Positions 23,530 to 52,302 of a stretch of 64,000 nucleotides of DNA are shown in pieces. The stretch's first letter is position 1. Each line of letters opens with the position of its first letter. Below the pieces are notes generated by a model. The model worked only from the letters and a program-made list of their open reading frames with translations. It was not told the origin of the DNA and searched no databases. Source of the stretch: an uncultured Candidatus Saccharibacteria bacterium (GTDB lineage: Bacteria; Patescibacteriota; Minisyncoccia; Phycocordibacterales; UBA9973); NCBI GenBank assembly GCA_964573395.1, contig CAZNJI010000001.1:34996-98995 (forward strand), written 5' to 3'. The translations under genes were made by a program, and so were the position numbers.

Positions 23530-23622
23530 TTCAAAATAATACCATGACAGCTTGCTGAAGAGTATTTTATCCACTGCGAATATGTTGACATTTTTAGCAA
23601 CCCTTGTATGATTGCATGGTCT

Positions 23623-25047
23623 ATGAAAAGCCATTCTCCCACAAGAGAAGAAGATTTTTTAGTCCTTCCTGAGCGGCTTTCGGCTAAAACTATTTTTACC
23701 AAGCGTACGAACTACGTGATTCTGGCGACGGCTATCGTTGCAGTTTCTGCGCTGACGCTCCTTGGCACTATTTTCAATATCCCATTTCCTATCGTCCTTT
23801 CAGCTACTGCTGGAGCGTTTTATCTGACCCTTTATGTATTTAAGCTCTGGGTCGTAAAGCAGTCTTTTAAAGATGAAAAGCGGCTGATTCAGTACAGCGA
23901 GAACGATATTGTGGCAATGGACGAAAGTGCGCTCAAAACTTATACCGTGCTCATTCCGCTCTATAAAGAAGCGCCGGTCGTTCCGCAGATTTTAAGGGCA
24001 ATGGGTGCAATCGATTACCCTACAGAAAAAATTGAATTTCTGGTAACGCTTGAAGCGTATGATCACGAAACGCGTGAGGCGTTTGAGCGGGTGGAACTGC
24101 CAAGAAACTGGCGCATTATCACCCTTCCTGACGTACAACCAAAAACGAAGCCGAAGGCATTGAATGTCGCGCTTCGCGAAGCGAAGGGGGAATACTTGGT
24201 CATTTATGATGCCGAAGTTGTGCCTGAGCCGTTACAGCTCAAGCGCGCAGCGTTAGCATTTAAAGAATACCCAGGAGTTGCGGCGCTCCAATGCCGGCTC
24301 GATCACTATAACGCGAATCAAAACATATTGAGCCGTCTGTTTAATGCGGAATTTGTTTTTTATTACGATTTATTTCTTCCGGGCCTTGAAGTGCTTAATC
24401 TGCCGATCCCCCTTTCAGGGCACAGCACCCATTTTCGGAGGAATGCACTGCTTGCCATCGGATCATGGGATCCGTACAACGTTACCGAAGACGTTGACGT
24501 TGCAATTCGTCTCTACCGAGCCGGATACCGGGCACGAGTGCTTGATTCGGTAAGCGAAGAAGAGGCAACTGTAACGCTTGGCTCATGGCTTCGCCAGCGA
24601 ACCCGCTGGATCAAAGGATTCCTCGGAACGGCAATCGTGCATTACCGCTATCCGCTCACGCTTGCCGAAAATATCGGCGGATGGAGAAGTTTCGTGTTGT
24701 TCTGCATTTTGCTTCCCCTTTCTAATTTCATTCACGTACTGAATCTTTTATACTTCGCGCTGACGACGGTTTGGCTTTTGTTCCGCCCGGAATTCGTGCA
24801 GCTATTCTTTAATTTGCCGGTGCTCTACATCAGCTATACCGTTTCGGTGCTCGGCATTGCGACATCTTCATATTTAAATTTGATTGCGCTGTATCGCCGA
24901 AAGCGGTTCTCGCTCGTAAAATATGCGCTTCTTTCTCCGGCATACTGGGTATTGCTTGCCTATGCGGGAGTGCGAGCCATGTACCAGCTATTCCGCGCTC
25001 CAACGGTATGGGAAAAGACGACGCACGGCACGCATCTTTTGAAGTAA
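23623..25047 (+). CDS. Processive family-2 glycosyltransferase (integral membrane, QxxRW-type)
   Basis: The motifs YDAE, QCRLDHYN, HFRRN and QRTRWIKGF (QxxRW) are flanked by transmembrane helices. The protein is a paralogue of residues about 350-730 of the 1554-aa fusion protein at 40318-44982. Confidence 0.8.
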   Translation: MKSHSPTREEDFLVLPERLSAKTIFTKRTNYVILATAIVAVSALTLLGTIFNIPFPIVLSATAGAFYLTLYVFKLWVVKQSFKDEKRLIQYSENDIVAMDESALKTYTVLIPLYKEAPVVPQILRAMGAIDYPTEKIEFLVTLEAYDHETREAFERVELPRNWRIITLPDVQPKTKPKALNVALREAKGEYLVIYDAEVVPEPLQLKRAALAFKEYPGVAALQCRLDHYNANQNILSRLFNAEFVFYYDLFLPGLEVLNLPIPLSGHSTHFRRNALLAIGSWDPYNVTEDVDVAIRLYRAGYRARVLDSVSEEEATVTLGSWLRQRTRWIKGFLGTAIVHYRYPLTLAENIGGWRSFVLFCILLPLSNFIHVLNLLYFALTTVWLLFRPEFVQLFFNLPVLYISYTVSVLGIATSSYLNLIALYRRKRFSLVKYALLSPAYWVLLAYAGVRAMYQLFRAPTVWEKTTHGTHLLK

Positions 25048-38055: not shown

Positions 38056-38056
38056 A

Positions 38057-38086
38057 AAACCGCCCTGTATGCAAGGCGGTTTTTCT
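38057..38086. terminator. Bidirectional terminator between convergent genes
   Basis: The stem ACCGCC-ctgtatgcaa-GGCGGT has an A-run upstream and a T-run downstream. Confidence 0.6.
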
Positions 38087-38096
38087 GTTCCTTTAC

Positions 38097-39901: not shown

Positions 39902-40321
39902 ATGAAAAAGCTTTTCGGAGAATTGGGACGGTTTGGACTCGTCGGGGGAATCAATACCCTGGTGGATCTCGGAGTGTTCAATTTGCTTATTTTTTTCTCC
40001 GGCCAAAACATTGAAAGACACTACACTCTCTTTAAGGCACTATCGTTTACTGTTGCTGTCGTTAATAGCTTCATCCTGAATAAGTTTTTCGTCTTCAGAA
40101 GCAAGGAAACAGCGGCTAGTAAGATTTTCCCCTTCCTCATCGTCAGTCTAGGGGGGCTTGCTTTAAATAGCCTATTTGCATCGTTCATTTTCCACCAACT
40201 TAATGCCGCGTACGGACAAGCCGACGTGAAATTTCACGCCAACGTAGCGGCAATTATTAGTACCGGGGTCGTAATGGTCTGGAATTTTCTTGGTTACAAG
40301 AAAATTGTATTTAAACTATGA
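39902..40321 (+). CDS. GtrA-family membrane protein (polyprenol-sugar translocation)
   Basis: The N-terminus FGLVGGINTLVDLGVFNLL is followed by four transmembrane helices, and the protein is about 139 aa, all typical of GtrA. The gene overlaps the downstream giant gene by 4 nt. Confidence 0.8.
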   Translation: MKKLFGELGRFGLVGGINTLVDLGVFNLLIFFSGQNIERHYTLFKALSFTVAVVNSFILNKFFVFRSKETAASKIFPFLIVSLGGLALNSLFASFIFHQLNAAYGQADVKFHANVAAIISTGVVMVWNFLGYKKIVFKL

Positions 40322-43300
40322 AACCAGTCTTCTTATCGATAATTATACCGGCGTATAACGAAGCGAAGCGCATCGGCTCCACCCTCAGAAGTATCGACGA
40401 GTATTTACGAGATAAGGAGTATACGTACGAAATTATTGTAGTGAGCGATGGTTCTTCTGATGACACCGAAACGGTTGTTTCAGGCCTCGCGTCGGAGGTA
40501 CGGAACCTCGTGCTTCTCTGCAATAGGGTTAATAGCGGAAAAGGGTATGCAGTGAAGTGCGGCATGCTCAAAGCAACGGGAGAATACCGGTTATTTCTTG
40601 ATGCTGACCACTCAACGCATATCAGTAATCTAGAAAGTTTCCTTCCGGAAATTCAGGGTTCTGATGCAAGTGTTATTGTTGGGTCAATCGCGCTCCAAAC
40701 GTCAAAAAGTATCGACCGTGCCGGATGGTACCGGAAAATTCTTCGGCCGATTTCGAAAAAAATCATCCATTCATTTTTACGCGTCGGGGTCAAGGATACC
40801 CAGCGCGGTTTCAAGCTCTTTACAAAACGGGCCGCGGAAATTATTTTTCCAAAAAGTGATAGTAAGGGGTTTCTGTTTGATGTTGAACTCTTAGTTATCG
40901 CCACCCATAACAACATGGTGGTAAAGGAATTGCCTGTTGATTGGGATAATCCGGCTGGGTCGAAAATCAAGCTCTCTTCGTACATAAAAGCGTTTGTTGA
41001 TTTCTTGAAAATCGTCGGAAAAAAAATAAGCGGTAAATACCGCTCTGCGTCGCATTTCCTCATTCAGCATTTCGATGAAGAAACTGAGAGTATAAAAGGA
41101 AAAGGGTTTTTCTATAAGAACAAAGAATTCGTCCACCATAGCAATCTGCACCACACCCAGACGGCGCTCTATAACCTGCTGAGTTCGCAGAAGATTTTTA
41201 TCGTGCTCCTGGTTGGCATTTTGGCAATCGGGTTCATTATCGATTGGCATGCAACGCTGGTTGCCATCATTGCAACCCTTACCATCGTGTACTTCCTCGA
41301 TCTTCTGTTCAATGCATTTTTAATTTACCGAAGCTTCGCCAAGAATCCGGAGATTGCGGTAAGTGGACAGGAGCTATCAGCACTCTCAGATGCAGCACTG
41401 CCAACCTATACTATTTTCTGTCCGCTCTACAAAGAGTGGCAAGTGGTGCCGCAGTTCGTCTCTGCAATGCAAGCACTCGACTACCCCGTCGAAAAACTTC
41501 AGGTGATGTTCCTGTTGGAAGAAAATGATGTCGAGACGATTGAAAAAATCCGCGAGTACGATTTGCCGGAACATTTCGAAATTGTCGTGGTGCCGCACTC
41601 AAAGCCAAAAACGAAGCCGAAAGCAATGAACTATGGCCTCAAGCATGCGCGAGGGGAATACTTGGTAATTTACGATGCTGAAGATGTCCCCGAGCCCGAT
41701 CAGCTCAAGAAGGCCGTTCGCGCTTTTGAGAAAGTAAAAGAAAACGTTGTCTGCATCCAGGCAAAGCTGAATTTTTACAATCCGCACCAAAATGTATTAA
41801 CCCGCGCTTTTACGGCTGAATACTCGCTGTGGTTTGACCTGGTGCTTCCGGGATTGCAGTCGCTCAATGCGCCGATTCCGCTTGGCGGCACGTCGAATCA
41901 TTTCAAGGTTTCGGCGCTTCGGGAGCTTTCCGGTTGGGACGCGTTTAACGTAACTGAAGATGCCGATCTGGGTATGCGGCTTGCAAAGCGCGGCTACCGA
42001 ACGGCAATTCTTGATTCAACCACGCATGAAGAGGCAAATTCCGGCCTCTGGAACTGGTTCAATCAGCGCAGCCGCTGGATCAAGGGCTACATTCAAACCT
42101 ATTTCGTGCACACGCGCGATCATGAAAAATTCCTTGAGAAAGGGAAACTGAAAGACGCGATTATCTTCCATTTGAATATCGGCGGAAAGATTCTTTCAAT
42201 GTTTATCAACCCATTCATGTGGCTTCTCACCGCTTCCTACTTCCTGTTCCGGGAAACCGCCGGGCCGTTCATTGAAACGCTCTTCCCGACAACAGTGCTC
42301 TATCTTGGCGTATTCTCGCTCGTGTTCGGAAATTTCCTCTACATGTACTATTACATGATCGGCTGCATGAAGCGCGGTTACACCGGGCTCGTAAAGTATG
42401 CGTTCGTCATTCCATTCTATTGGCTCGGCATGAGCGCCGCTGCCTGGCGGGCGCTCTACGAAGTAGTGGTGAATCCGCACTACTGGTCCAAGACGGTGCA
42501 CGGGCTGCACCTGCAGAAAGAAAAAGGAGAGCCGGAAATTCTTGAAGATATCGAAACAAACGCCGAACAGATTCCGCAGTACTTCTGGACAAGAGTGCGG
42601 CAATCCATTTTTTCAGGCGCCGGCGTGCTGGTGGTGGCAACCATTATCGCAAACGTCTTCAATCTGCTTTTCAACATTTATCTTGGCAATCGGCTCTCGC
42701 TTGAAGAATTCGGCGTTATTACGGCGCTTAATACGCTCGTGTATTTAATTAGCATCGTGGTGAGCGCGTACGGAACGACCATCGTCCACCAAGTGGCGCA
42801 CCTGGTCGGGCGAATGAGCCAGTTTGCCGGGTTTTCATACTTTAAAAAGATTAGAGCCTACGGCTTCCTGATCGCCATTGCTGCTGCGGCGCTCTGGCTG
42901 TTCCTCACGCCAGCAATCGCGAATTACCTGCACATTTCAAACAGCCTCCTCGTTGCGTCATTCGCGCCGGCGATTATCGCGGTCTTGCTTGCTTCAGTGA
43001 ATCGCGGTTATCTCCATGGCAGCCTGTTCTTCAAAAGCATTGCCATTATCGTTTTAGTCGAAGTGATAGCAAAGCTTGGGTTGGCGATTTGGTTCGTTGA
43101 ATCCAAGATTCAATGGTTTGCGGCATTATCATTGCCGATTTCAATGATTATTGCCTACCTCATATCGCTTTTCATGGTGAAGCGCCCGGAGAAAGTGCCG
43201 CTTGATCGTTCAACCCAGAAAGATTTCTCATTCTCATTTTTCGGTGCAGCACTCGTTACTGGATTCTCGACTATGGCGTTCTTGAGCCTCGATGTTTTCT

Positions 43301-44982
43301 TTGCTAAGCACTACTTGAGCCCGAGCGAAGCCGGCGTTTACAGCCTCCTTTCGCTTGTCGGGAAAATGATTTTCTTCTTCGGATCGCTCTTAAATGCATT
43401 CATCGTCCCGATGACGAGCCGGCTTGAAGGGAAAGGCGAAGACGCAAAACCGCTCTTCTATAAAATATTCCTGGGCGCATTCTTCTGTTCGCTTGTTTCG
43501 AGCGCCGGGCTCGTGCTTACTGGGCCATACGTGCTTCCGCTCATGTTCGGCGCAAAGGCCGCAACCATTTTCGCGTACATTCCGCTCTATGCGCTCGCAA
43601 TGTTCCTCTTGGCGGTTACGAATACGGTCGTCCTTTTCCATTTGGCACGAAAGCAGTATCTGTTTGCTGCCATCTCCATTTTCTCGGCGCTTCTGATGGT
43701 GTTCGGCATCTCACGGGCGAACGATTCGGTTGAAAAAATCGTCGGCGTCTTCCTGTTCTCAAACGCGATTTACGCGATTCTTATCTTCTCAAGCCATCTC
43801 TTTTACGGAAAAATCGTTTCGTTCTATAAGAACGTTTTAGATGCGCTCCGGGTATTTCTGCCAATTCCGGCGGCGCTGCCAGCGAAGCCGGGCAAGAAGC
43901 GGATTCTCATTTTCAACTGGCGCTGCCTGAACCACACTTTTGCCGGTGGCGCCGAAGTCTACATTCAAACCTTCGCGAAGCAGTGGGTTAAAGAAGGGCA
44001 CTCGGTCACGATCTTTTGCGGCAATGATCGCCAGTCGCTTTCAAACGAATTCGTTGACGGCATCCGGGTCATTCGCCGCGGCGGATTCTATTCGGTGTAC
44101 ATAAACGCGTTTCTCTACTACATGGCAAAATTCCGCGGCAAATTCGACGTCATCATCGACTGCGAAAACGGCATTCCATTCTTTACGCCGCTCTACGCCA
44201 AAGAATCAGTGTATATTCTGGTGCACCACGTGCACCAAGAGGTGTTCAGAAAAACGCTAGTTGCGCCGCTTGCCGCTTTTGCGGCGTTCATGGAGCGTAA
44301 AGTTATGCCGGCCGTGTATCGCAATACGCCGTTCATCACCGTGTCTGAATCGTCAAAAGCCGATCTTGAAGCGCTGGGCGTAACCAGCAGGAACATTGAG
44401 GTCATTCATCCCGGAGCCGACATTGCATTCCTGCGTCCGGCGCCGAAAAACGACGTGCCAACCATTTCATATGTTGGCCGTTTGAAGGATTACAAATCGA
44501 TTGACGTACTCATTAAGGCATTTGCAAAGGTAGTGCGGAAAGTGCCGCGTGCCCAGCTGGTAATTGCCGGAACGGGAGAGATGCGCGGAACGCTTGAATC
44601 GGTTGCGAAAGAGCTCGGGATTGAAGGATCGGTAAATTTCGTTGGTCGGGTAAGCGAAGAGGTAAAGCGCGAAATCTACCAGCAGTCGTGGGTAACGGTG
44701 AATCCGTCGATGATGGAAGGGTGGGGCATTACGACCATCGAGGCGAATGCCTGTGGTACGCCAGTCGTTGCGGCAGACGTTCCCGGGCTTCGTGATTCGG
44801 TGCGTGACGGCATTACCGGGTTCCTGTTTCCGCATGGCGACGATGAGGTGCTGGCAGAGAAGCTCGTAAAAATCATCAAGAGTAAAGTGCTTCAGAGAAA
44901 GCTTGCGATGAACGCGATTGAGTGGTCGCAGGATTTCGCCTGGGAGAAGGGAGCTGACAAGTTCTTGAGGATAATTGTATGA
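40318..44982 (+). CDS. 1554-aa four-module fusion: GT2 (polyprenyl-phosphate glycosyltransferase-like) + processive QxxRW GT2 + Wzx/MOP-like flippase + GT4
   Basis: This is a single uninterrupted ORF. Module 1 carries IIIPAYNEAKRI...VVSDGSSDDT and DADHST. Module 2 carries YDAED, QAKLNFYNP and QRSRWIKGY with flanking transmembrane helices. Module 3 is a 12-TM block of about 420 aa. Module 4 carries KRILIFNWRCLNHTFAGGAEVY...EGWGITTIEANACGTPVVAADVPGLRDSV. Confidence 0.85.
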   Translation: MKPVFLSIIIPAYNEAKRIGSTLRSIDEYLRDKEYTYEIIVVSDGSSDDTETVVSGLASEVRNLVLLCNRVNSGKGYAVKCGMLKATGEYRLFLDADHSTHISNLESFLPEIQGSDASVIVGSIALQTSKSIDRAGWYRKILRPISKKIIHSFLRVGVKDTQRGFKLFTKRAAEIIFPKSDSKGFLFDVELLVIATHNNMVVKELPVDWDNPAGSKIKLSSYIKAFVDFLKIVGKKISGKYRSASHFLIQHFDEETESIKGKGFFYKNKEFVHHSNLHHTQTALYNLLSSQKIFIVLLVGILAIGFIIDWHATLVAIIATLTIVYFLDLLFNAFLIYRSFAKNPEIAVSGQELSALSDAALPTYTIFCPLYKEWQVVPQFVSAMQALDYPVEKLQVMFLLEENDVETIEKIREYDLPEHFEIVVVPHSKPKTKPKAMNYGLKHARGEYLVIYDAEDVPEPDQLKKAVRAFEKVKENVVCIQAKLNFYNPHQNVLTRAFTAEYSLWFDLVLPGLQSLNAPIPLGGTSNHFKVSALRELSGWDAFNVTEDADLGMRLAKRGYRTAILDSTTHEEANSGLWNWFNQRSRWIKGYIQTYFVHTRDHEKFLEKGKLKDAIIFHLNIGGKILSMFINPFMWLLTASYFLFRETAGPFIETLFPTTVLYLGVFSLVFGNFLYMYYYMIGCMKRGYTGLVKYAFVIPFYWLGMSAAAWRALYEVVVNPHYWSKTVHGLHLQKEKGEPEILEDIETNAEQIPQYFWTRVRQSIFSGAGVLVVATIIANVFNLLFNIYLGNRLSLEEFGVITALNTLVYLISIVVSAYGTTIVHQVAHLVGRMSQFAGFSYFKKIRAYGFLIAIAAAALWLFLTPAIANYLHISNSLLVASFAPAIIAVLLASVNRGYLHGSLFFKSIAIIVLVEVIAKLGLAIWFVESKIQWFAALSLPISMIIAYLISLFMVKRPEKVPLDRSTQKDFSFSFFGAALVTGFSTMAFLSLDVFFAKHYLSPSEAGVYSLLSLVGKMIFFFGSLLNAFIVPMTSRLEGKGEDAKPLFYKIFLGAFFCSLVSSAGLVLTGPYVLPLMFGAKAATIFAYIPLYALAMFLLAVTNTVVLFHLARKQYLFAAISIFSALLMVFGISRANDSVEKIVGVFLFSNAIYAILIFSSHLFYGKIVSFYKNVLDALRVFLPIPAALPAKPGKKRILIFNWRCLNHTFAGGAEVYIQTFAKQWVKEGHSVTIFCGNDRQSLSNEFVDGIRVIRRGGFYSVYINAFLYYMAKFRGKFDVIIDCENGIPFFTPLYAKESVYILVHHVHQEVFRKTLVAPLAAFAAFMERKVMPAVYRNTPFITVSESSKADLEALGVTSRNIEVIHPGADIAFLRPAPKNDVPTISYVGRLKDYKSIDVLIKAFAKVVRKVPRAQLVIAGTGEMRGTLESVAKELGIEGSVNFVGRVSEEVKREIYQQSWVTVNPSMMEGWGITTIEANACGTPVVAADVPGLRDSVRDGITGFLFPHGDDEVLAEKLVKIIKSKVLQRKLAMNAIEWSQDFAWEKGADKFLRIIV

Positions 44983-46235
44983 AGAAAATATTCATAACCC
45001 ACTTTTTCACGAAAAATAATAAAGGCGATGCTGCCATTCTTTTTTCCATGATTGATCAGATAAAAAAGAATATTGAAAACGTCTCAATTTCCGTGGCAAC
45101 TACTGAGCCGATTTCAGGTACTGAGCCTTATAAAGTAGTGCATTCTTTTTTCTATCATGCTATTTATTCCACCGAAAACCCTATAGTAAAGGTTTTGAAA
45201 TCAGTTTGGATTATCTCTGCAAGTATGGTTTGGGCGTTTTTTTATAGATATTTAAGAATAAAATTAGATTTCCTTTTAAGGAAAGAAATCATCGGTTTAC
45301 TGGAGGAATATAATTCTTCGGATATGGTCGTTCCGGTAGGGGGTGGGTATATAACAGGGAGCAATTCTCTTAGAGGAAATATGACAATTGTTTTGCATTT
45401 ACATGCAATTGTAATTGCCCTTTTGCTAAAAAAACCTGTCATACTTTTTTCTCAATCAATCGGCCCTTTTGCAAATGATTTTCAAAGATACATAACAAGA
45501 TTTGTGTTGAATAAGGTCACTTATATTTTTGCAAGAGAAAATTATTCCGTAGAAACTTTAAATTCTATTGGTGTTAATAAAAGTAAGGTAGTAAAAACTG
45601 TTGATGCTGCCTTCCTTTTTGAAAGTAATTTGAAAAGCGAGATGAACATAGAAATGCAGTCTTTTGGCATTACTTTTGATAAGCCAATAGTCGGTATAAC
45701 GCTTAAAAAATGGTTAGGAAAAGATGAGCAAGATAAATATGAACGCGAATTAGCGCAATTCTGTAATTATGCAATTGATGAGAAGAAAATGGATGTGGTA
45801 ATTATTCCCCAGGTTACTTCGCTCATGCATAACGACGATGACCGCTTGGTTGGGGATAGGATTAAGGAAATTGTAGGTAAAAAAGAAGGTCTCTTTGTCT
45901 TAAATAAAGAATATAGCGCATATGAGATAAAAGGAATTTATGAAAATATCAACTATCTTGTTGGTACACGGATGCATTCATGTATTCTTTCGCTTATTTC
46001 GGGCATTCCGGTTATTGCTATTCAGTACGAATATAAAACAGGAGGCATGATGAAGGATTTGGGATTGCATGATTGGGTGGTTAAATTTGAGGATGTTACG
46101 TTTGATTTATTGAAAAACAAATTTGATCAGCTGCTAAATGAAAAAGAAAAATATCTTTTGGCGCTAAGCAGTACTATTCCGGCTTACCAGAAAGAAGCAC
46201 AAAAAGCGTTCTTAGTTTTAAAAGAGCAAATGTAG
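44979..46235 (+). CDS. Polysaccharide pyruvyl transferase-like protein (WcaK/CsaB family)
   Basis: The N-terminal block THFFTKNNKGDAAI is followed by GGGYITG and by a C-terminal block LVGTRMHSCILSLISGIPVIAIQYEYK. Both blocks are typical of PS_pyruv_trans. Confidence 0.65.
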   Translation: MKKIFITHFFTKNNKGDAAILFSMIDQIKKNIENVSISVATTEPISGTEPYKVVHSFFYHAIYSTENPIVKVLKSVWIISASMVWAFFYRYLRIKLDFLLRKEIIGLLEEYNSSDMVVPVGGGYITGSNSLRGNMTIVLHLHAIVIALLLKKPVILFSQSIGPFANDFQRYITRFVLNKVTYIFARENYSVETLNSIGVNKSKVVKTVDAAFLFESNLKSEMNIEMQSFGITFDKPIVGITLKKWLGKDEQDKYERELAQFCNYAIDEKKMDVVIIPQVTSLMHNDDDRLVGDRIKEIVGKKEGLFVLNKEYSAYEIKGIYENINYLVGTRMHSCILSLISGIPVIAIQYEYKTGGMMKDLGLHDWVVKFEDVTFDLLKNKFDQLLNEKEKYLLALSSTIPAYQKEAQKAFLVLKEQM

Positions 46236-46238
46236 CCT

Positions 46239-47348
46239 ATGAATATTCCTAGCCAAAAACCAAGCATAATCTTCTCAAATTATGATGATCGTAAAAATCC
46301 GTACTATGGCGGCGGTGGAGCTGTTGCAGTGCATGAAGTCGCCAAACGCTTAGTAGATGCTTCCAGTATTACGGTTGTAACTGGAAAATATCCAGGAAGC
46401 AAAGATGAAATGATCGATGGTGTTTTCTATAAACGCATTGGAACATCGAAAATAAAACCTCCGCTTGCCCTCATGGTATATCAGCTTCTTTTACCTTTTT
46501 ACGCGATGAAAATGAAGTATGAAGTATGGGTTGAATCTTTCACGGCTCCGTATTCAACCGCTTTTCTACCTATTTTTACTCGAAAGCCGGTAATAGGTTT
46601 AACGCATCTCCTTGCAGGAAGGCCAATGTATCGGAAGTATAAAATTCCTTTTCACTGGATAGAGAAAATCGGATTGAAATTTTATAAGTACGTTATTGCG
46701 CTCAATGATGAATTAAAGAATCAGATATTATCTGCAAACAAAAAAGCGCAAGTGGCCATTATCCCAAACGGCGTTCCGGAAAGTTTAATTTCCGCTGAGT
46801 TTGAAAAACAAGGTAATCATATCCTTTATCTAGGAAGAATTGATTATAAACAAAAAGGGCTTGACATGCTTCTTGAAGTCTATAAAAAAATAGCAAACAA
46901 TACCAATTTAAATCTAATCATTGCCGGAGGAGGAGAGCAAAAGGAAATCGATAAATTAATGGAAAACATAAAAAACTTAGAACTTGCTACGCGAGTTCAC
47001 TATGTAGGGAAAGCAGAGGGTGAGACAAAAGAGAAGCTTTTTAAGGAAGCAAAAGTGTTTGTTATGACTTCAAGGTTTGAAGCTTTTCCGCTAACGCTTA
47101 TTGAGGCATGGTGCTACAAATGTCCTGTCGTGCTTTTTAATATAGATGTTTTAAGGTGGATTCCTGAATCATTTACAAAAAAGATTGAGCCTTTTAGTGT
47201 GGAAAAATTTTCACAGGAACTGCTTAACTTATCAAATAGTCAAGAGGAATGGAAGATAATGGGAGAAAAAGCTAAGGAGTTTTCCCAGAAATTTAGCTGG
47301 AATAATGCATCAAGAATGTATGAAGAATTCATTAGGAATGTTAAATAA
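46239..47348 (+). CDS. Glycosyltransferase family 4
   Basis: The central block ILYLGRIDYKQKGLDMLLE and the C-terminal block SRFEAFPLTLIEAWCYKCPVV are typical of GT4. Confidence 0.85.
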   Translation: MNIPSQKPSIIFSNYDDRKNPYYGGGGAVAVHEVAKRLVDASSITVVTGKYPGSKDEMIDGVFYKRIGTSKIKPPLALMVYQLLLPFYAMKMKYEVWVESFTAPYSTAFLPIFTRKPVIGLTHLLAGRPMYRKYKIPFHWIEKIGLKFYKYVIALNDELKNQILSANKKAQVAIIPNGVPESLISAEFEKQGNHILYLGRIDYKQKGLDMLLEVYKKIANNTNLNLIIAGGGEQKEIDKLMENIKNLELATRVHYVGKAEGETKEKLFKEAKVFVMTSRFEAFPLTLIEAWCYKCPVVLFNIDVLRWIPESFTKKIEPFSVEKFSQELLNLSNSQEEWKIMGEKAKEFSQKFSWNNASRMYEEFIRNVK

Positions 47349-47349
47349 T

Positions 47350-48144
47350 ATGACGAACTTATTAATTAAAATTAAATATCTTGCCTTTATGGTAATTTTC
47401 TTCACTCTTAATCCGGGGAAATTTTTCAGACTTGTGAAAAATCACCTAAAGGCGAAAAAAATTGTTATTGGAAAGAGAAATGGTAATTTTTATGTTTCAG
47501 TAATCATTGTTACCCATAATGCTCTTGATTATGTAAAGAAATGCTTACATTCATTGAATAAATTTAAATCTGAAAATGTGGAAATAATTGTTGTTGACAA
47601 TGCAAGCAATGAAGAAACGGTGAATTTTTTAAATTCTCAAAAAGAATTAGGAAAGATTGATAAATTACATCTTTCAAAAGAAAACACTTATTTTGCTGGG
47701 GGCAACAACATTGGCGCAAAATTGGCAAGTGATCGATCTACTCATTTTTTGTTATTAAACAGTGATACTGAAATTAAAAATGCCCAGTGGCTTGATGCAA
47801 TGCTTTCAAATGTGCCAGATAGGGGAATTATCTCTTTTGGTAAAACAAGTATTCCGGTAGTTAGGCCAGATGGATGGTGTTTTCTTATAGACAAGAAAAC
47901 ATATGAAGAATTTGGTGGTATTAACGAATACTATAAAATGAATTGGGGAATTACAGAACTTGCAGGAAAGGTCGGCAACAAAGGATATGGGGTAAAAAGT
48001 ATCCTTAATCCTGAAAAGTATGTTGTTCACTATGGCCAAAAAAGTTATATGTCTGCAAGTAGCACGGCTAAATTTAACAGGATGTCTAATAATGAGGTTG
48101 TAAAGCTGTTTAAGAATGTAAAAGTTAATTTATATAAAATTTGA
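47350..48144 (+). CDS. Glycosyltransferase family 2
   Basis: The motifs YVSVIIVTHNALDYVKKCLHSL, VVDNASNEET and LLLNSDTE are present. The internal Met (MTNLL) is chosen as the start so that the gene abuts the upstream stop. Confidence 0.75.
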   Translation: MTNLLIKIKYLAFMVIFFTLNPGKFFRLVKNHLKAKKIVIGKRNGNFYVSVIIVTHNALDYVKKCLHSLNKFKSENVEIIVVDNASNEETVNFLNSQKELGKIDKLHLSKENTYFAGGNNIGAKLASDRSTHFLLLNSDTEIKNAQWLDAMLSNVPDRGIISFGKTSIPVVRPDGWCFLIDKKTYEEFGGINEYYKMNWGITELAGKVGNKGYGVKSILNPEKYVVHYGQKSYMSASSTAKFNRMSNNEVVKLFKNVKVNLYKI

Positions 48145-48147
48145 TTT

Positions 48148-49692
48148 ATGAAAAATTCTTCAGCAATTATTTTCTTAGTCCTATTTGGAATCCTTATTTT
48201 TGGGCTAGTTTTTCGAGGAACATGGGGCAATCCCTCTGCAGAAGAATTAGCGCAAAGTACTAATAATCCTATTAGAATTTATGGAACCACTACTGATAGA
48301 GGAAGGTTTGTATTAACAAGAAATCTAGTAGAGGAACATTCTTTTAAGCTTGATCGAATGGAAGCGGATGCTTCTTCTCCTGATGCCGGGTATTACAAGG
48401 GTAATTGGTATCTCTTGTATGCCCCAGGAACATCAATTTTAGCCACTCCATTTTATAAGCTTGGCTCATACTTTAATTTAGAACTTGTTGGGTCATTTGC
48501 TTTATCAACGGTAACTACTCTGGGTAGTTTGATTTTTATTTTCTTAATTTCGAGAAGAATCTTAAAATTGCCAATCTGGCTTTCGCTGTTTTCTAGTTTT
48601 GTTTTCGGATTCGGCTCCATTGCAATTGGATATACTTCAGGTTTATTTCAGCACCACACAACAACTTTCTTTATTATTTCTAGCCTTTATGCCGTTTTTC
48701 AATATAAAAATAGTAAAAAGAGTATTTTATGGGCTTTATATGTATGGCTTGCTTATGGAATCGCAATTTCGCTTGATTACCCGAATATTTTCTTAATGCT
48801 TCCGGTAATGATCTATTTCTTGGTAGCTTCTTTTGAAACGAGAGAGGAAGATAAAAAATATAAAATTAGAATCAACCCGATTTTTTTAATGACATCTGTA
48901 GTGTTTATTTCTCTTAGTTTAGTACATGGCTACTACAACTATAAACACTTTGGGGGATGGAATAAATTAAGTAGTAATCTACCTGACTATAGACAAAATA
49001 TTCATCGATATCTAGATGAGGGAAACATGGAGCAAGCTATTGAAGAGGTAACAATAAATAAAGGGGAAAGAAGTCCTGTTTCTGTATTTACAGAAAACAA
49101 AATAACAAATGGTTTATATGAATTGCTTGTTGCTAAAGATAAAGGATTGTTTTTCTTTAATCCGATCTTTATCTTTGGGCTTTTTGGAATCATTCTTGCT
49201 TTTAAGAAAATGACCTTAGAAAAAGGGATCTTAATAGCTTTAATAGGAGCAAATCTATTTTTGTATTCAAGCTGGGCTGATCCATGGGGCGGATGGGTCT
49301 ATGGCCCTCGATACTTAATTCCCTCAATGGCGACACTTTCGATTTTTGTTGCTTACGCTATGCACCCTTTGCGTTATAAATTTTTCCCTAAAATAGTTGC
49401 TTTTATCCTATTTGCTGGATCAGCCGCGATTTCATTAATTGGCGCTCTGACAACTAATTCTGTTCCTCCAAAAGTCGAAGCTATATTTTTGAATATAAAA
49501 TACGGTATTCCTTATGCATATGACTTTCTAATTGCAGGGCAAAGTAACAGTTTTACCTATAACCAATTTTTTTCAAGCTTAATTTCTTTGAAAAATTATT
49601 ACCTTGCAATCTTAAGCTTAATTATTCTAATGGTTTTTATAGTTCTCTTTATCATGCCTAAATTCGAGAAAAAATATGAACCTGTCGATTAG
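48148..49692 (+). CDS. Polytopic membrane protein, GT-C-like (PMT/ArnT-like glycosyltransferase candidate)
   Basis: This is a 514-aa protein with about 12 transmembrane helices. It lies within the glycan operon and overlaps the next gene. Confidence 0.65.
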   Translation: MKNSSAIIFLVLFGILIFGLVFRGTWGNPSAEELAQSTNNPIRIYGTTTDRGRFVLTRNLVEEHSFKLDRMEADASSPDAGYYKGNWYLLYAPGTSILATPFYKLGSYFNLELVGSFALSTVTTLGSLIFIFLISRRILKLPIWLSLFSSFVFGFGSIAIGYTSGLFQHHTTTFFIISSLYAVFQYKNSKKSILWALYVWLAYGIAISLDYPNIFLMLPVMIYFLVASFETREEDKKYKIRINPIFLMTSVVFISLSLVHGYYNYKHFGGWNKLSSNLPDYRQNIHRYLDEGNMEQAIEEVTINKGERSPVSVFTENKITNGLYELLVAKDKGLFFFNPIFIFGLFGIILAFKKMTLEKGILIALIGANLFLYSSWADPWGGWVYGPRYLIPSMATLSIFVAYAMHPLRYKFFPKIVAFILFAGSAAISLIGALTTNSVPPKVEAIFLNIKYGIPYAYDFLIAGQSNSFTYNQFFSSLISLKNYYLAILSLIILMVFIVLFIMPKFEKKYEPVD

Positions 49693-51301
49693 TAAACAAG
49701 CTGTAGAAAGAGTTGCTCGATTTTTCGAGAAAGCTGCACGGCCGAAAGGGGTGTTTATTTTAGCTACGATTTTAAGCATTGTTTCTATTATTTTCTGCTA
49801 TATCAAAGGCTACATTGTTATTTATGGCGACGCGGAATCGCATCTAAACATCGCAAAGCGCGTGATTCATAGCATTACACCGGGCTTTGCGCAGTTAGGT
49901 GGTATTTGGCTGCCATTGCCGCATGTACTTATGCTTCCGTTTATTTGGTCTGATGTTTTGTGGAAAACTGGCCTTGCAGGTTCAATCGTTTCAGGCCTCT
50001 CGTTTGTTGTCTCGGCCGTATTCATTTATAAAACTGCTTTCTTCTTGTTTAAAAACCGAATTGCATCATTCGCGGCAGCGCTTGTTTTTATGCTGAACCC
50101 TAATGTGCTGTATTTGCAGGCAACGCCGATGACAGAATTAGTGCTTATTTGTTTCTTCGTGCTTTCTTCGTATTTCTTTATAAAGTTTTTGTTTAACGAA
50201 AAGCAAACACTTTCGCTTATCCAGGCAGCCTTCTTTGGTTTTTGTGCGGTGCTTACCCGCTACGACGGTTGGTTCTTGGTTGCCGTTGAGGCCGGAATTA
50301 TCGCGCTCTACTTTCTGCCATGGCAGAAACTGCGCGAAGGGGTAAGGGTATTTTGGAAGGGGATTGAATGGAAGAAGATTGAAGGGAACGTTGTTTTGTT
50401 TGCAACGCTGGCGTTTCTGGGAATAGTGCTGTGGCTCGGATGGGACTGGCTTATTTTAGGCGATCCGCTTTACTTTACCACCAGCCAATTCTCGGCCGCG
50501 TCCCAACAGCAGGAGTGGCTTTCTCGGGGTATGTTGCCGGCATACCACAATGCGTGGATGTCGTTTCTGTATTACTTCGTTACGGCGATGAGTAATGCAG
50601 GTGTGGTGTTGTATTTTGCTGCGCTTATCGGCATATTCCATTATCTTGGTAACAAACATTTCAAGCATCGATTCTTCGTAATCCTGCTTCTTTTGAGCCC
50701 GTTCATTTTCAACGTTGTTACGCTCTTTTTGGGACAGTCGGTCATTTTTATTCCGCACCTGACGCCGCTTGATTGGGATCATAGTATTTTTAACGTCCGC
50801 TACGGGGTTATGGCCGTGCCGCTTGTCGCTCTCTTATTCGGGTATCTTTTCTTTGTCAGCAAGGCTGGCGGCAAACTGCTTTTGGGCGGATTATTCTTAT
50901 TCCAATTTGCGCTCTATGGCGTCGGCTATTCTCAGGTTATTTCATTCGAAGATGGCTGGCGCGGGCTTTCATCCCAGCAGGCAACGCTCCCTGATGCGCA
51001 GTACTGGTTTGCGCGAAACTACGATTACGGCCTGGTGCTGATGGATGACTTCGCGAAAACAATTAGTATTACGAGAACGCCGGTAAAAATGCAAAACATG
51101 ATTTACATCGGAAACAAGCCGTACTGGGAAGAATCGCTCGTTGAACCGCAGAAGTATGCTCGCTGGATTATTATGCAAAAAGACGATACTGTATGGAGCA
51201 ACGTCTTGGGACGGCCGGAAGTGGAAGACCGCCTCTATGCCTATTTCAACAAGGTGTACACCTCAGACGAGATTCTTATTTTTAGACGAATCGATAACTA
51301 A
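49676..51301 (+). CDS. Polytopic membrane protein, GT-C-like; paralogue of 25049-26842
   Basis: The conserved blocks GDAESHLNIAKR, LNPNVLY and TPMTE are shared with the protein at 25049-26842. The hydropathy pattern is also similar. Confidence 0.7.
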   Translation: MNLSISKQAVERVARFFEKAARPKGVFILATILSIVSIIFCYIKGYIVIYGDAESHLNIAKRVIHSITPGFAQLGGIWLPLPHVLMLPFIWSDVLWKTGLAGSIVSGLSFVVSAVFIYKTAFFLFKNRIASFAAALVFMLNPNVLYLQATPMTELVLICFFVLSSYFFIKFLFNEKQTLSLIQAAFFGFCAVLTRYDGWFLVAVEAGIIALYFLPWQKLREGVRVFWKGIEWKKIEGNVVLFATLAFLGIVLWLGWDWLILGDPLYFTTSQFSAASQQQEWLSRGMLPAYHNAWMSFLYYFVTAMSNAGVVLYFAALIGIFHYLGNKHFKHRFFVILLLLSPFIFNVVTLFLGQSVIFIPHLTPLDWDHSIFNVRYGVMAVPLVALLFGYLFFVSKAGGKLLLGGLFLFQFALYGVGYSQVISFEDGWRGLSSQQATLPDAQYWFARNYDYGLVLMDDFAKTISITRTPVKMQNMIYIGNKPYWEESLVEPQKYARWIIMQKDDTVWSNVLGRPEVEDRLYAYFNKVYTSDEILIFRRIDN

Positions 51302-51303: not shown

Positions 51304-52302
51304 ATGAAGCCTTTTTCAATAGCCTTGCTGATAGCGGAAGTTGCAATTCTTGCGCTGGTCATTTCATTCGTTCAAGAGAACAAGAAAAAGCCGGAAGCGG
51401 TTGCGCCTGAAGTAATTCCGTTTACCGTAAAATCGATTGATACGATGAAATACTCGCGCGATCTGGCGCGAGAAAAATCAAACGATTCGTCGTTCGACAC
51501 AGAGATTGCCGCGCAGATGAAATTGATAAAAGGCGCAGGGGCAACCCATGCGGCAATTAGCACTCCGTATGACAAAGAGTTCGTTCCGATGCTTACACGC
51601 TGGGTGAATGCGGCGCGCGCTGAAGGGCTTTCTGTTTGGTTCCGCGGAAATTTCTCGGGATGGGAAGGGTGGTTTAACTACAGCCGGATTAGTGCCGATA
51701 CGCACAAAAAACTGCTGGCAGAATTTATTGCAAATAACCCAACGCTTTTTGCTGATGGTGATATTTTCAGCGCTTGCCCTGAGTGCGAGAATGGCGGCCC
51801 GGGCGATCCGCGCCGAACGGGAAAGAAGAATGAATTCAATCACTTTCTCGTTTCTGAATACGATATTGCCCGCGATGCATTCCGAAAAATCGGCAAAGAC
51901 ATAACGCTCTACACCAGTATGAATCTCGACATTGCCCGCGAGGTTATTAATCCGGTAACGGCGCAGAAGTTGGGAGGCACAATTTTGGCAGACCACTACG
52001 TAAGTTCGGTAGAGAAATTTGGAAATGACATCAAACAAACTTCGCAGCGCCTGGGCGCGCATGTGGGGCTCGGAGAGTTTGGTGCGCCAATTCCGGACAT
52101 TAATGGCAAGATGACCCTAGAGCAGCAGGCGCAGTTCGTGGCAGGGCTTGCAAAGGCCATGGGCGAGCAGAACATTCTTGTGATGAACTATTGGACGCTG
52201 AAAGGGGGAACAACGGCGCTGGTGAATTCAAAAAATGAGCCATTGCCGGCATACAATGTTTTAAAGCAGTTTTACACTTCAATAAAAAATCCTCCTCGCT
52301 AA
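51304..52302 (+). CDS. Secreted protein, possible TIM-barrel glycoside hydrolase
   Basis: An N-terminal signal-anchor is present, and the alternating beta/alpha pattern suggests a TIM barrel. The call is weak and not motif-based. Confidence 0.45.
   Translation: MKPFSIALLIAEVAILALVISFVQENKKKPEAVAPEVIPFTVKSIDTMKYSRDLAREKSNDSSFDTEIAAQMKLIKGAGATHAAISTPYDKEFVPMLTRWVNAARAEGLSVWFRGNFSGWEGWFNYSRISADTHKKLLAEFIANNPTLFADGDIFSACPECENGGPGDPRRTGKKNEFNHFLVSEYDIARDAFRKIGKDITLYTSMNLDIAREVINPVTAQKLGGTILADHYVSSVEKFGNDIKQTSQRLGAHVGLGEFGAPIPDINGKMTLEQQAQFVAGLAKAMGEQNILVMNYWTLKGGTTALVNSKNEPLPAYNVLKQFYTSIKNPPR

What the first reader, a model, noticed from the sequence alone, without database searches (positions are those of the whole stretch)
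40318..44982. Single 1554-aa polypeptide fusing two GT2 glycosyltransferases, a Wzx-like flippase and a GT4 glycosyltransferase
One uninterrupted ORF joins four modules in order: a DPM1-like polyprenyl-phosphate GT2; a processive QxxRW GT2 with its own transmembrane bundle, paralogous to the free-standing gene at 23623-25047; a 12-TM MOP/Wzx-type transporter of about 420 aa; and a GT4. Such 'assembly-line' fusions of synthesis and export of a lipid-linked glycan are very rare. This one is preceded by a 4-nt-overlapping gtrA and followed by a pyruvyl transferase and further glycosyltransferases, all translationally coupled. That implies a complete lipid-linked glycan pathway, partly in one protein. 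It is not a frameshift artefact unless three separate frame-restoring errors occurred.
Basis: partly seen in the sequence, partly recalled or inferred. Interest (0 to 1): 0.8.

Follow-up and report, generated by a model that had tools for sequence, protein, structure and literature searches.

The report
Four-module glycan synthase–flippase fusion protein
A single 1554-residue membrane protein really does join three sugar-adding enzymes to a lipid-linked-sugar flippase, but it is a widespread, conserved and so far uncharacterised protein family of the ultra-small Patescibacteria (CPR) rather than a rare one-off, and probably builds part of their cell envelope.

Summary

It is not an artefact. 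More than 100 protein clusters cover the full length, and 14 independently assembled genomes carry the same single ORF. Other genomes split the same ordered modules into adjacent genes.

The fusion is spread across Patescibacteria, and this MOP clade is fused to many other enzymes.

The conserved partners are not gtrA or the pyruvyl transferase. They are a GT39/PMT_2-like membrane protein (49676-51301), DUF7657 and a membrane-anchored outside protein. The window also holds a second, unfused pair of GT2b and GT39-like paralogues.

No initiating phosphoglycosyl transferase accompanies the cluster. The most likely role, inferred only, is assembly and flipping of a polyprenyl-phosphate-linked glycan that is used outside the membrane.

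The parts
39902..40321 (+). gtrA (139 aa, GtrA/DPMS transmembrane domain); stop overlaps the fusion's start by 4 nt
   Evidence: PF04138 E=2.8e-23; ATGA overlap. Present upstream of the fusion only in 5 related loci, all with the same flavour of GT2a.
40318..44982 (+). the 1554-aa four-module ORF
   Evidence: Identical protein P0001 is in NCBI; full-length homologues at 42-61% identity.
40318..41103 (+). module 1, GT2a (residues 1-262): soluble GT-A domain of polyprenyl-phosphate-sugar-synthase type, motifs DAD95-97 and D160-x-Q162
   Evidence: PF00535 7-172. The family profile matches DPMS 5mlz over the full domain (4-231, E=2.6e-22), GtrB 5ekp and ArnC. NCBIfam matches spanning most or all of the domain: PpgS, AglJ, PgfS (residues 6-177), Dol-P hexose transferase, all below cut-off. 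Motifs conserved.
41164..41328 (+). two-helix membrane hairpin (residues 283-337), the N-terminal membrane anchor of GT2b
   Evidence: hydropathy; also present at the N-terminus of the free-standing paralogue.
41350..42510 (+). module 2, GT2b (residues about 345-731): membrane-integrated synthase-fold GT2 with YDAED453-456, GGTSNHF, TED546-548, QRSRW583-587, then interface and TM helices
   Evidence: PF13641/PF13632; BcsA 7lby E=8.7e-16; Foldseek BcsA, hyaluronan synthases, PcManGT; motifs conserved at 90-95% or more; 52-75% identity across related loci.
42511..42594 (+). flexible linker (about residues 732-759) between GT2b and the transporter
   Evidence: pLDDT below 50 at model residues 483-500 and pTM 0.57 for the two-domain model; low conservation.
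42595..43812 (+). module 3, 12-TM MOP-superfamily transporter (residues about 760-1165), Wzx/PST-like
43903..44979 (+). module 4, retaining GT4 (residues 1196-1554) with EX7E (E1467...E1475)
   Evidence: PF13439 + PF00534; MshA, PimA, BshA, TarM in PDB; motif conserved.
44979..46235 (+). polysaccharide pyruvyl transferase (418 aa), lineage-variable neighbour
   Evidence: PF04230 E=2.8e-41; found in only 4 of 20 informative loci.
46239..47348 (+). GT4 glycosyltransferase (369 aa), variable part of the cluster in a low-GC stretch
   Evidence: PF00534/PF13439; GC 0.35.
47305..48144 (+). GT2 glycosyltransferase (279 aa as listed; the true start may be later)
   Evidence: PF00535 E=1.6e-15.
48148..49692 (+). 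DUF7657 polytopic membrane protein (514 aa), conserved partner, possible GT-C
   Evidence: PF24677 at 25.6 bits against a 26-bit cut-off; weak NCBIfam match to the LA_3751/LA_3752 family putative glycosyltransferase; 4 of 120 listed homologues carry PF13231; in 13 of 20 informative loci.
49676..51301 (+). GT39/PMT_2-like polytopic membrane protein (541 aa), the most conserved partner; invariant first-loop Y-G-D52-x-E54-S-H-L-N motif
   Evidence: Many homologues carry PF13231 and some are named 'glycosyltransferase family 39 protein'; 54-71% identity to the listed homologues; invariant columns; in 17 of 20 informative loci. No PDB sequence match.
51304..52302 (+). membrane-anchored extracytoplasmic protein (332 aa), third member of the conserved trio, function unassigned
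   Evidence: one N-terminal TM helix; conserved downstream of the GT39-like gene; relatives carry an extra CarboxypepD_reg domain; only a faint Glyco_hydro_cc hint.
23608..25047 (+). free-standing paralogue of GT2b (479 aa)
   Evidence: 41% identity, E=4e-109; PF13632/PF13641.
25049..26842 (+). paralogue of the GT39-like protein (597 aa), starting 2 nt after the GT2b paralogue's stop
   Evidence: hhalign probability 99.9, E=3e-35, 456 columns against the unk541 family profile; unrelated to the MOP and DUF7657 profiles.

Best explanation
The ORF is a genuine, conserved multi-enzyme of Patescibacteria. It holds four modules on one membrane-embedded chain: (1) a GT2 of the polyprenyl-phosphate-sugar-synthase type, (2) a membrane-integrated GT2 with the cellulose/hyaluronan-synthase fold and an intact TED/QRxRW active site, (3) a 12-TM MOP transporter of the Wzx/PST kind and (4) a retaining GT4. 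Proposed mechanism: all three catalytic domains face the cytoplasm. GT2a, helped in this lineage by GtrA, loads a sugar on polyprenyl phosphate. GT2b (beta-linking) and GT4 (alpha-linking) act on a lipid-linked acceptor at the membrane surface. The fused MOP domain flips the lipid-linked product. Outside the membrane, the GT39/PMT_2-like protein, DUF7657 and the anchored unk332 protein use the flipped lipid-linked sugar or glycan to build or decorate an envelope glycoconjugate. Because no phosphoglycosyl transferase accompanies the cluster, the carrier is probably polyprenyl monophosphate, as in archaeal Agl N-glycosylation and GtrB/GT-C systems. Shown here: module identities, intact motifs, the MOP fold, the conserved module order with fusion/fission, and the conserved partner genes. 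Inferred: topology, substrates, order of reactions, the carrier lipid and the final acceptor.
For: Domain identities. MOP fold. Wzx Pfam families hit in relatives at the same position. Catalytic motifs of GT2a, GT2b and GT4 conserved at 90-95% or more in 120 homologues (279 positions at 95% or more). Same module order as one ORF in 14 or more loci, and as GT2a|GT2b-MOP-GT4, GT2a-GT2b|MOP-GT4, GT2a-GT2b|MOP and GT2b|MOP in others. This fusion/fission pattern implies the modules work together. Even numbers of strongly hydrophobic spans between the catalytic domains (2, then 2, then 12). GT39-like partner in 17 of 20 informative loci and DUF7657 in 13 of 20. GT39-like homologues carry PF13231, and about 940-aa versions appear (from length and domains) to be fused to an unk332-like part. 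A second adjacent pair of GT2b paralogue and GT39-like paralogue in the same window. No WbaP-type initiating transferase within 8 kb in any of 46 loci. GT2a matches spanning most or all of the domain are Dol-P/Und-P sugar synthases (DPMS, PpgS, AglJ, PgfS).
Against: No activity was tested, and no curated family cut-off (NCBIfam) is reached by any module. The window's MOP copy has no Pfam hit, and fold alone cannot separate a lipid-linked-glycan flippase from a MATE-type exporter. GT2b carries the signature of processive, self-translocating synthases, which need no flippase. AlphaFold gives no confident GT2b-MOP interface (pTM 0.57, disordered linker). MraY/WecA-type initiating transferases were not searched for. 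The GT-C nature of DUF7657 is weak, and DUF7657 is not demonstrably related to the GT39-like protein. Neither membrane partner matches a solved structure by sequence. The window's GT2a lacks the DADLQxPPE motif found in most other members.
Confidence: 0.55

Rival explanations
1. Hybrid of two pathways. GT2b is an autonomous processive synthase that polymerises and extrudes a beta-glycan (cellulose-, chitin- or PNAG-like) through its own membrane channel. GT2a, GT4 and the MOP domain serve a separate lipid-linked sugar stream used to prime or decorate that polymer outside. The fusion only co-localises them.
For: Intact D, DxD, TED and QRxRW motifs. Best sequence and structure matches are BcsA, hyaluronan synthases and PgaC/IcaA. 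The window also encodes a wall-anchored GH6 glucanase, a chitin-synthase-like GT2 and deacetylases. Some homologues carry a polysaccharide deacetylase domain (P0015, P0017).
Against: Only four strongly hydrophobic helices flank GT2b, against eight in BcsA. The small non-secreting PcManGT gives the best target-normalised match (TMt 0.67). GT2b is consistently adjacent or fused to a flippase and consistently paired with a GT39-like protein, which classical synthase systems do not need. No PilZ, BcsB, PgaD or Alg44-type partner was found.
Confidence: 0.25
2. Glycolipid or lipoglycan anchor pathway. GT2b and/or GT4 glycosylate a diacylglycerol- or phosphatidylinositol-type lipid, as YpfP and PimA do. 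The MOP domain flips this glycolipid, as LtaA does functionally. Outside, GT-C enzymes extend it with polyprenyl-phosphate sugars from GT2a, as in mycobacterial lipomannan synthesis.
For: The GT4 module matches PimA and MshA. GT2b has a weak Glyco_transf_21 (glycolipid synthase) hit. The logic 'GT2 polyprenyl-P-sugar synthase + GT-C outside + cytoplasmic GT4' mirrors Ppm1/PimA/MptA-B (established knowledge of mycobacterial LM/LAM synthesis).
Against: MOP/PST flippases characterised so far act on polyprenyl-linked substrates (established knowledge). The GT21 hit is far weaker than the synthase hits. No LtaS-type or inositol-related gene was seen in the cluster.
Confidence: 0.12
3. The MOP module is a MATE-type small-molecule exporter or an inactive membrane scaffold, and has nothing to do with flipping lipid-linked glycans.
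For: The window's copy hits no Wzx Pfam model. Three of 44 relatives and two fused homologues hit PF01554 MatE. MATE structures score as well as WzxE.
Against: Wzx models are hit by 19 and 10 of 44 relatives against 3 for MatE. In the 10 other fusions examined, the partner domains were glycosyltransferases in 9 (with an added GNAT in one) and APH + GrpB in the tenth. About 25 positions in the module are conserved at 95% or more across 120 homologues, so it is under selection.
Confidence: 0.05
4. Assembly or frameshift artefact, or a decaying pseudogene that happens to read through.
For: None found. The source is probably a metagenome-assembled genome, so reads could not be inspected.
Against: The same single ORF occurs in 14 or more independent genomes. 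More than 100 clusters show full-length coverage at 42-61% identity. Catalytic motifs are intact in all modules. Both structure models are of high confidence.
Confidence: 0.01

Closest known systems
Wzx / PST-family flippases of the MOP superfamily (e.g. WzxE lipid III flippase, PDB 9G95; TacF)
   Different: About 12% sequence identity and no Pfam hit for the window copy. Covalently fused between a synthase-type GT2 and a GT4. No Wzy polymerase, chain-length regulator or initiating phosphoglycosyl transferase in the cluster. The window has a separate canonical Wzx with a WbaP-type transferase at 5812-8572.
Membrane-integrated processive GT2 synthases (BcsA, hyaluronan synthase, PgaC/IcaA, chitin synthase/NodC) and the minimal cellulose-synthase-like PcManGT (PDB 6YV7)
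   Same: GT-A domain with D, DxD, TED and QRxRW motifs, interface helices and flanking TM helices. Best sequence and fold matches.
   Different: Only about 480 residues with 2+2 strongly hydrophobic helices. No PilZ domain and no BcsB, PgaD or Alg44 partner. Instead it is fused or adjacent to a flippase and paired with a GT39-like protein. Far below the NCBIfam cut-offs for PgaC and CelA.
Three-component GtrA/GtrB/GT-C glycosylation systems and relatives (CsbB-GtcA-YfhO, ArnC-ArnT, Ppm1-PMT, PgfS-PgfM)
   Same: GtrA gene + polyprenyl-phosphate-sugar-synthase-like GT2 + PMT_2/GT39-like polytopic protein in one operon.
   Different: Here the GT2 is fused to three further modules. GtrA is present only in one sub-lineage. 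Two different polytopic proteins and an anchored outside protein are conserved. A MOP flippase is present, which those systems lack.
Archaeal Agl N-glycosylation on dolichyl monophosphate (AglJ, AglG/I/E, flippase-like AglR, AglS)
   Same: Initiation by a DPM1-like GT2 without a phosphoglycosyl transferase, extension by GT2 and GT4 enzymes, a Wzx-like MOP protein and a Dol-P-sugar-dependent membrane transferase. NCBIfam hits to AglJ (GT2a) and Agl16 (GT4, full length). The pathway outline is recalled from established literature and was not tested here.
   Different: Bacterial. No AglB/STT3-type oligosaccharyltransferase was seen. All hits are far below the family cut-offs. The steps are fused into one protein.
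Multi-domain glycosyltransferase polymerases of ABC-transporter-dependent O-antigen synthesis (e.g. Klebsiella and E. coli O9a types; PMC11231755 appeared but was not read)
   Same: Several GT modules on one polypeptide acting successively on one lipid-linked glycan.
   Different: Those are soluble or peripheral and are not fused to their exporter. Export there is by an ABC transporter, not a MOP domain.

Membership tests
MOP superfamily | 12 (or 14) TM helices arranged as two pseudo-symmetric six-helix lobes | tested here: met
Wzx / PST family (Pfam PF01943, PF13440) | sequence match to the family model above its gathering score | tested here: not met
   The window copy has no hit even at E<=10. 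Transitive support only: 19 of 44 and 10 of 44 stand-alone relatives hit PF01943 and PF13440. Fused homologues hit at the same position, e.g. P0008 PF13440 at 49.9 bits against a 23-bit cut-off.
Wzx / PST family | translocates a polyprenyl-diphosphate-linked repeat unit | not testable with these tools
   Needs a flipping or complementation assay.
Wzx/Wzy-dependent pathway | initiating phosphoglycosyl transferase and Wzy polymerase encoded with the flippase | tested here: not met
   Neither was recognised in 39.9-52.3 kb. No WbaP-type homologue within 8 kb in any of 46 loci. WecA/MraY-type enzymes were not searched for. The window's only such transferase (7271-8572) belongs to another cluster with its own Wzx.
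Polyprenyl-phosphate sugar synthases (DPM1/DPMS, GtrB, ArnC) | GT-A domain with a DxD motif and whole-domain similarity to family members | tested here: met
   DAD95-97 conserved. Profile match to DPMS 5mlz over 4-231 (E=2.6e-22), GtrB over 4-172, and ArnC. NCBIfam matches spanning most or all of the domain: PpgS, AglJ, PgfS (6-177), Dol-P hexose transferase.
Polyprenyl-phosphate sugar synthases (DPM1/DPMS, GtrB, ArnC) | score above a curated equivalog cut-off; DADLQxPPE-type motif | tested here: not met
   Best NCBIfam scores are 47-59 bits against cut-offs of 325-500. The window has DADHSTHIS. The DADLQYPPE motif is present in the other flavour of this module in most fusions. That this motif is typical of the family is recalled from memory.
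Polyprenyl-phosphate sugar synthases (DPM1/DPMS, GtrB, ArnC) | association with a GtrA/DPMS-type 4-TM domain | tested here: met
   gtrA (PF04138) lies directly upstream with a 4-nt overlap, but in only 5 of 46 related loci.
Processive membrane GT2 synthases (BcsA/HAS/PgaC/chitin synthase) | D, DxD, TED and Q(R/Q)xRW motifs | tested here: met
   D404, YDAED453-456, TED546-548 and QRSRW583-587 are conserved at 90-95% or more in 120 homologues.
Processive membrane GT2 synthases (BcsA/HAS/PgaC/chitin synthase) | synthase fold: GT-A domain packed on interface helices and a TM bundle | tested here: met
   Foldseek hits to BcsA (1.5e-11), hyaluronan synthases (about 2e-10) and PcManGT (7e-9, TMt 0.67). 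Domain pLDDT about 90.
Processive membrane GT2 synthases (BcsA/HAS/PgaC/chitin synthase) | continuous transmembrane channel and secretion of a long polymer | tested here: inconclusive
   Only 2+2 strongly hydrophobic helices plus amphipathic helices. Model coordinates could not be inspected. Product length is not testable here. Scores are far below the PgaC and CelA cut-offs (93.9 against 422; 84.8 against 699).
GT4 retaining glycosyltransferases | two-Rossmann GT-B architecture (PF13439 + PF00534) and an EX7E motif | tested here: met
   PF13439 at 1210-1370 and PF00534 at 1377-1536. E1467 and E1475 conserved. PDB matches to MshA, PimA and BshA.
GT-C, GT39/PMT_2-like (partner gene 49676-51301) | polytopic membrane protein matching PF13231, with an acidic motif in the first outside loop | tested here: inconclusive
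   The window copy has no Pfam hit. Many homologues carry PF13231 and a few are named GT39. Invariant D52-x-E54 after the first TM helix. No PDB sequence match.

The most novel reading that the evidence does not exclude
The fusion, together with the GT39-like, DUF7657 and unk332 partners, is a Patescibacteria-wide, possibly essential envelope-glycan machine of a new pathway type. In this reading, a synthase-fold GT2 works on a polyprenyl-monophosphate carrier, with no phosphoglycosyl transferase, and hands its product directly to a covalently attached MOP flippase. A PMT_2-type enzyme then uses the product outside. This would be a hybrid between synthase-dependent, Wzx-dependent and archaeal-type Dol-P pathways. 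The recurrent pairing of GT2b with a GT39-like protein (two paralogous pairs in this window) would then define a previously unrecognised two-enzyme unit.
Probability: 0.25. Interest if true: 0.72.

Novelty: new variant of a known kind. Interest (0 to 1): 0.5.

Why it matters
Patescibacteria (CPR) make up a large share of bacterial diversity. They are mostly uncultured, live attached to host cells, and their surface chemistry is essentially unknown. A gene cluster conserved at 50-75% identity across several named Patescibacteria candidate lineages, centred on one protein that couples glycan synthesis to membrane flipping, is a concrete candidate for a core envelope polymer or glycoconjugate of this radiation.

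The natural fusion/fission series says which enzymes work together: GT2a, GT2b, MOP and GT4, plus the GT39-like protein. That would be hard to learn without genetics. The fused synthase-flippase is also an attractive single-chain target for structural and biochemical work on how lipid-linked glycans are handed from their last glycosyltransferase to a Wzx-type flippase.

It is not a new enzymology by itself. Every module belongs to a known superfamily, and the proteins are already in public databases under generic names.

Tried and rejected
- **Pfam on the 12-TM segment alone at E<=10:** nothing.
- **Sequence profile of the MOP family against PDB:** only GPCR matches, presumably spurious and caused by membrane-helix composition. 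Rejected as uninformative and replaced by structure prediction.
- **NCBIfam for finer naming:** no module reaches any curated cut-off.
- **PDB sequence-profile searches for the GT39-like, DUF7657 and unk332 families:** no useful hits.
- **hhalign of the GT39-like profile against the DUF7657 profile:** probability 1.7%, so a common GT-C origin could not be shown.
- **hhalign of the 597-aa protein against the MOP and DUF7657 profiles:** negative.
- **Two-domain AF2 model to look for a GT2b-MOP interface:** domains are confident but their relative placement is not (pTM 0.57).
- **Exact look-up of the window's protein on contigs:** not on record.
- **Cluster look-ups for taxonomy of other MOP fusions:** almost no names.
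- **AFDB50 fold search:** library unavailable.
- **Literature:** six searches on CPR or Patescibacteria glycosyltransferases, flippase fusions and cellulose synthase found nothing on this family. The one candidate paper (PMC12419801) concerns other domains.
- **Promoter and terminator scans:** not above shuffled expectation.


Full report
**Observation.** The window holds an uninterrupted ORF at 40318-44982 on the + strand: ATG start, 1554 codons. Its ATG overlaps the stop of an upstream gtrA gene in an ATGA. Its own stop overlaps the ATG of the next gene in the same way. Pfam on the whole protein finds a GT2 domain at residues 7-172, a second GT2 of the PF13641/PF13632 type at 362-666, and a two-part GT4 at 1210-1536. 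A simple hydropathy scan finds a two-helix hairpin at 283-337, two strongly hydrophobic helices after the second GT2 (about 625-676), and about twelve helices at 760-1162. One caveat: the proposed transporter module has no Pfam hit at all, even scanned alone at E<=10.

**The transporter module.** An exhaustive phmmer search with residues 751-1190 found 2879 relatives at E<=1e-3 and 127 at E<=1e-30. They occur as stand-alone proteins of about 410-430 aa, as two-domain proteins of about 720-840 aa, and inside long fusions. Of 43 stand-alone relatives aligned with the query, 19 hit PF01943 (Polysacc_synt, the Wzx family), 10 hit PF13440 and 3 hit MatE. In fused homologues these models hit at exactly the corresponding position; P0008, for example, hits PF13440 at 49.9 bits against a 23-bit cut-off.

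**The three glycosyltransferase modules.**
- **GT2a.** Both alone and as a small family profile, GT2a matches dolichol-phosphate mannose synthase over its whole domain (5mlz, residues 4-231, E=2.6e-22). It also matches GtrB and ArnC. The NCBIfam hits that span most or all of the domain are polyprenyl-phosphate sugar synthases (PpgS, AglJ, PgfS, a Dol-P hexose transferase), all far below cut-off.
- **Two flavours of GT2a.** Most fusions carry DADLQYPPE...DVQSGLKVF and match ArnC at 2.4e-26. The window and its nearer relatives carry DADHS...DTQRGFKLF, and only these have gtrA upstream.
- **GT2b.** It matches E. coli BcsA (E=8.7e-16) and, below cut-off, PgaC/IcaA and CelA. In a 951-residue model (pLDDT 90) its nearest solved structures are BcsA, hyaluronan synthases and the small archaeal PcManGT.
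- **GT4.** It resembles MshA, PimA, BshA and TarM.
- **Motifs.** In an alignment of 120 homologues, 279 positions are conserved at 95% or more. They include DAD95-97 and D160-x-Q162 (GT2a); YDAED453-456, TED546-548 and QRSRW583-587 (GT2b); and the EX7E pair E1467/E1475 (GT4). All three enzymes look active.

**Not an artefact, and not rare.**
- A search of 5.8 billion clustered proteins returned an identical NCBI entry.
- Among the best 120 hits, 81 proteins are of four-module length or longer (79 of 1500-1700 aa and two of about 1900 aa). Most of them cover 100% of the query at 42-61% identity.
- The other 39 are of three-module size, about 1240-1430 aa, and lack GT2a.
- Where sources give names, they are Parcubacteria, Patescibacteria, Roizman-, Woese-, Beckwith- and Niyogibacteria.
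- A scan of one genome per GTDB species found 46 loci in Paceibacteria (61% identity, same gene order), Giovannoni-, Roizman-, Doudna-, Gottesman-, Levy-, Woese-, Moranii- and Azambacteria. It also found third-party MAGs whose record titles name other phyla; I did not verify those titles.
- Stop-to-stop analysis shows GT2a-GT2b-MOP-GT4 as one frame in 14 loci, plus four more of four-module length where GT2a was too divergent for my threshold.
- Other arrangements are GT2b-MOP-GT4 with GT2a as the adjacent upstream gene, GT2a-GT2b next to MOP-GT4, GT2a-GT2b next to MOP, and GT2b next to MOP.

This fusion/fission series, always in the same order, excludes a frameshift artefact and indicates that the modules act together. 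Other members of the same MOP clade are fused as MOP-GT4, MOP-GT4-GNAT, MOP-GT2, MOP-GT4-GT2, MOP-GT2-GT4, GT2-MOP and MOP-APH-GrpB. The statement that such fusions are very rare does not hold for this lineage.

**Neighbourhood.** The operon runs from gtrA (39902) to about 52302 with overlaps or gaps of a few bases. Downstream of the fusion lie:
- a pyruvyl transferase, a GT4 and a GT2;
- a DUF7657 polytopic protein;
- a 541-aa polytopic protein with no Pfam hit of its own;
- a 332-aa protein with one N-terminal helix.

Many homologues of the 541-aa protein carry PF13231 (PMT_2), and some are named glycosyltransferase family 39. The listed homologues are 54-71% identical to it, and an invariant YGD-x-ESHLN motif follows the first helix. 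About 940-aa versions carry the CarboxypepD_reg domain that relatives of the 332-aa protein also carry. From their length and domains I infer these are fusions of the two.

Among 20 related loci with at least 7 kb of downstream sequence, 17 have this GT39-like gene, 13 have DUF7657 and 8 have the 332-aa gene, which is often cut off by the flank limit. Only 4 have a pyruvyl transferase and 3 have gtrA. The middle of the cluster (46-50 kb) has a GC content of 0.35 against about 0.47 elsewhere and varies between genomes.

No WbaP-type initiating transferase and no canonical Wzx lies within 8 kb of the fusion in any locus. The window's own canonical Wzx and WbaP-type transferase sit in a separate cluster at 5.8-8.6 kb.

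**An unexpected pairing.** The free-standing paralogue of GT2b (23608-25047; 41% identity, E=4e-109) is followed two bases later by a 597-aa polytopic protein. That protein is a clear paralogue of the GT39-like partner (hhalign probability 99.9, E=3e-35 over 456 columns). It is unrelated to the MOP and DUF7657 profiles. The genome thus holds two copies of a pairing between a synthase-fold GT2 and a PMT_2-like protein. Neither the classical synthase scheme nor the GtrB/GT-C scheme predicts this pairing, and I cannot fully explain it.

**Mechanism (inferred).** The strongly hydrophobic spans between the catalytic domains come in even numbers: two, then two, then twelve. This would keep GT2a, GT2b and GT4 on the cytoplasmic side, where nucleotide sugars are. 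The helix at 689-718 is amphipathic, and I take it to be an interface helix. The proposed sequence is:
1. GT2a (with GtrA in this lineage) makes a polyprenyl-phosphate sugar.
2. GT2b and GT4 add beta- and alpha-linked sugars to a lipid-linked acceptor.
3. The fused MOP domain flips the product.
4. The GT39-like protein, DUF7657 and the anchored outside protein use it to build or decorate an envelope glycoconjugate.

The lack of a phosphoglycosyl transferase points to a monophosphate carrier, as in archaeal Agl glycosylation and GtrB/GT-C systems. That comparison is from established knowledge, not from a test here.

The main rival is that GT2b is a true self-translocating synthase and the other modules serve a parallel decoration stream. 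Its motifs and best matches favour this. Its small membrane part, its constant association with a flippase and its pairing with a GT39-like protein argue against it. AlphaFold gives no confident interface between GT2b and the MOP domain (pTM 0.57, disordered linker at residues 732-749). Direct hand-over is therefore not supported structurally.

**Novelty.** Every module belongs to a known superfamily, and the proteins are already deposited under generic names such as 'glycosyltransferase' and 'cellulose synthase/poly-beta-1,6-N-acetylglucosamine synthase-like glycosyltransferase'. Six literature searches found no description of this architecture or cluster; the library covers open-access papers and preprints only. 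I rate it a new variant of a known kind: a covalent synthase-flippase-transferase assembly with a conserved GT39-like partner, spread across several named Patescibacteria lineages. Interest is moderate (0.5). It is a good experimental handle on the unknown envelope of a major bacterial radiation, but the present evidence is annotation-level and the mechanism is inferred.

Noticed in passing
window 23608-26842: The free-standing paralogue of GT2b is followed 2 nt later by a 597-aa polytopic protein that is a paralogue of the GT39-like partner of the fusion (hhalign probability 99.9, E=3e-35). The genome therefore has two copies of a pairing between a synthase-fold GT2 and a PMT_2-like protein. 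No classical scheme predicts this pairing.
   Followed up: partly
window 13658-17582: The 23S rRNA gene spans 3749 nt against a 2925-nt Rfam model, so it holds about 820 nt of insertions. A 5S gene follows, and no 16S gene lies within the 13.6 kb upstream in the window. No credible ORF and no Rfam intron family was found inside the excess sequence.
   Followed up: partly
window 2904-8572: A second, canonical polysaccharide cluster: methyltransferase, GT4 (4723-5838), free-standing Wzx (5812-7263, minus strand, PF01943 E=5e-31) and a WbaP-type phosphoglycosyl transferase (7271-8572, minus strand, PF02397).
   Followed up: no
window 30993-35052: A chitin-synthase-like GT2 (PF03142, 439 aa) is followed by a 911-aa protein with two polysaccharide deacetylase domains. 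This resembles a NodC/NodB or PgaC/PgaB pair. Some homologues of the fusion itself carry a deacetylase domain (P0015, P0017).
   Followed up: no
window 35077-39704: A 992-aa protein joins a GH6 (cellulase-family) domain, an Ig-like domain and a peptidoglycan-binding domain. On the opposite strand lies a DUF4114 + peptidoglycan-binding protein. These are wall-anchored enzymes directly upstream of the operon.
   Followed up: no
window 26889-30980: A 1363-aa secreted-looking protein with glucose/sorbosone dehydrogenase, PKD, CARDB, CBM4_9, Ig and LamG domains.
   Followed up: no
window 46001-50000: GC drops to 0.35 (about 0.47 elsewhere) over the GT4, the GT2 and most of the DUF7657 gene. The GT4/GT2 part of the cluster also varies between related genomes, so it may be exchanged horizontally.
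   Followed up: no
window 51304-52302 and loci L001, L005, L008, L011, L035: The anchored 332-aa partner is about 80-100 residues shorter than its relatives, which end in a CarboxypepD_reg-like domain. From their length and domains, about 940-aa homologues of the GT39-like protein appear to be fusions of the two.
   Followed up: partly
loci L008, L015, L018, L019, L021, L027, L030, L031, L034-L037: Third-party MAG records titled 'uncultured Gammaproteobacteria', 'Bdellovibrionales' or 'Pseudomonadales' carry the same fusion, in several cases with the same partner genes as bona fide Patescibacteria. The record titles are probably unreliable, but this was not verified.
   Followed up: no
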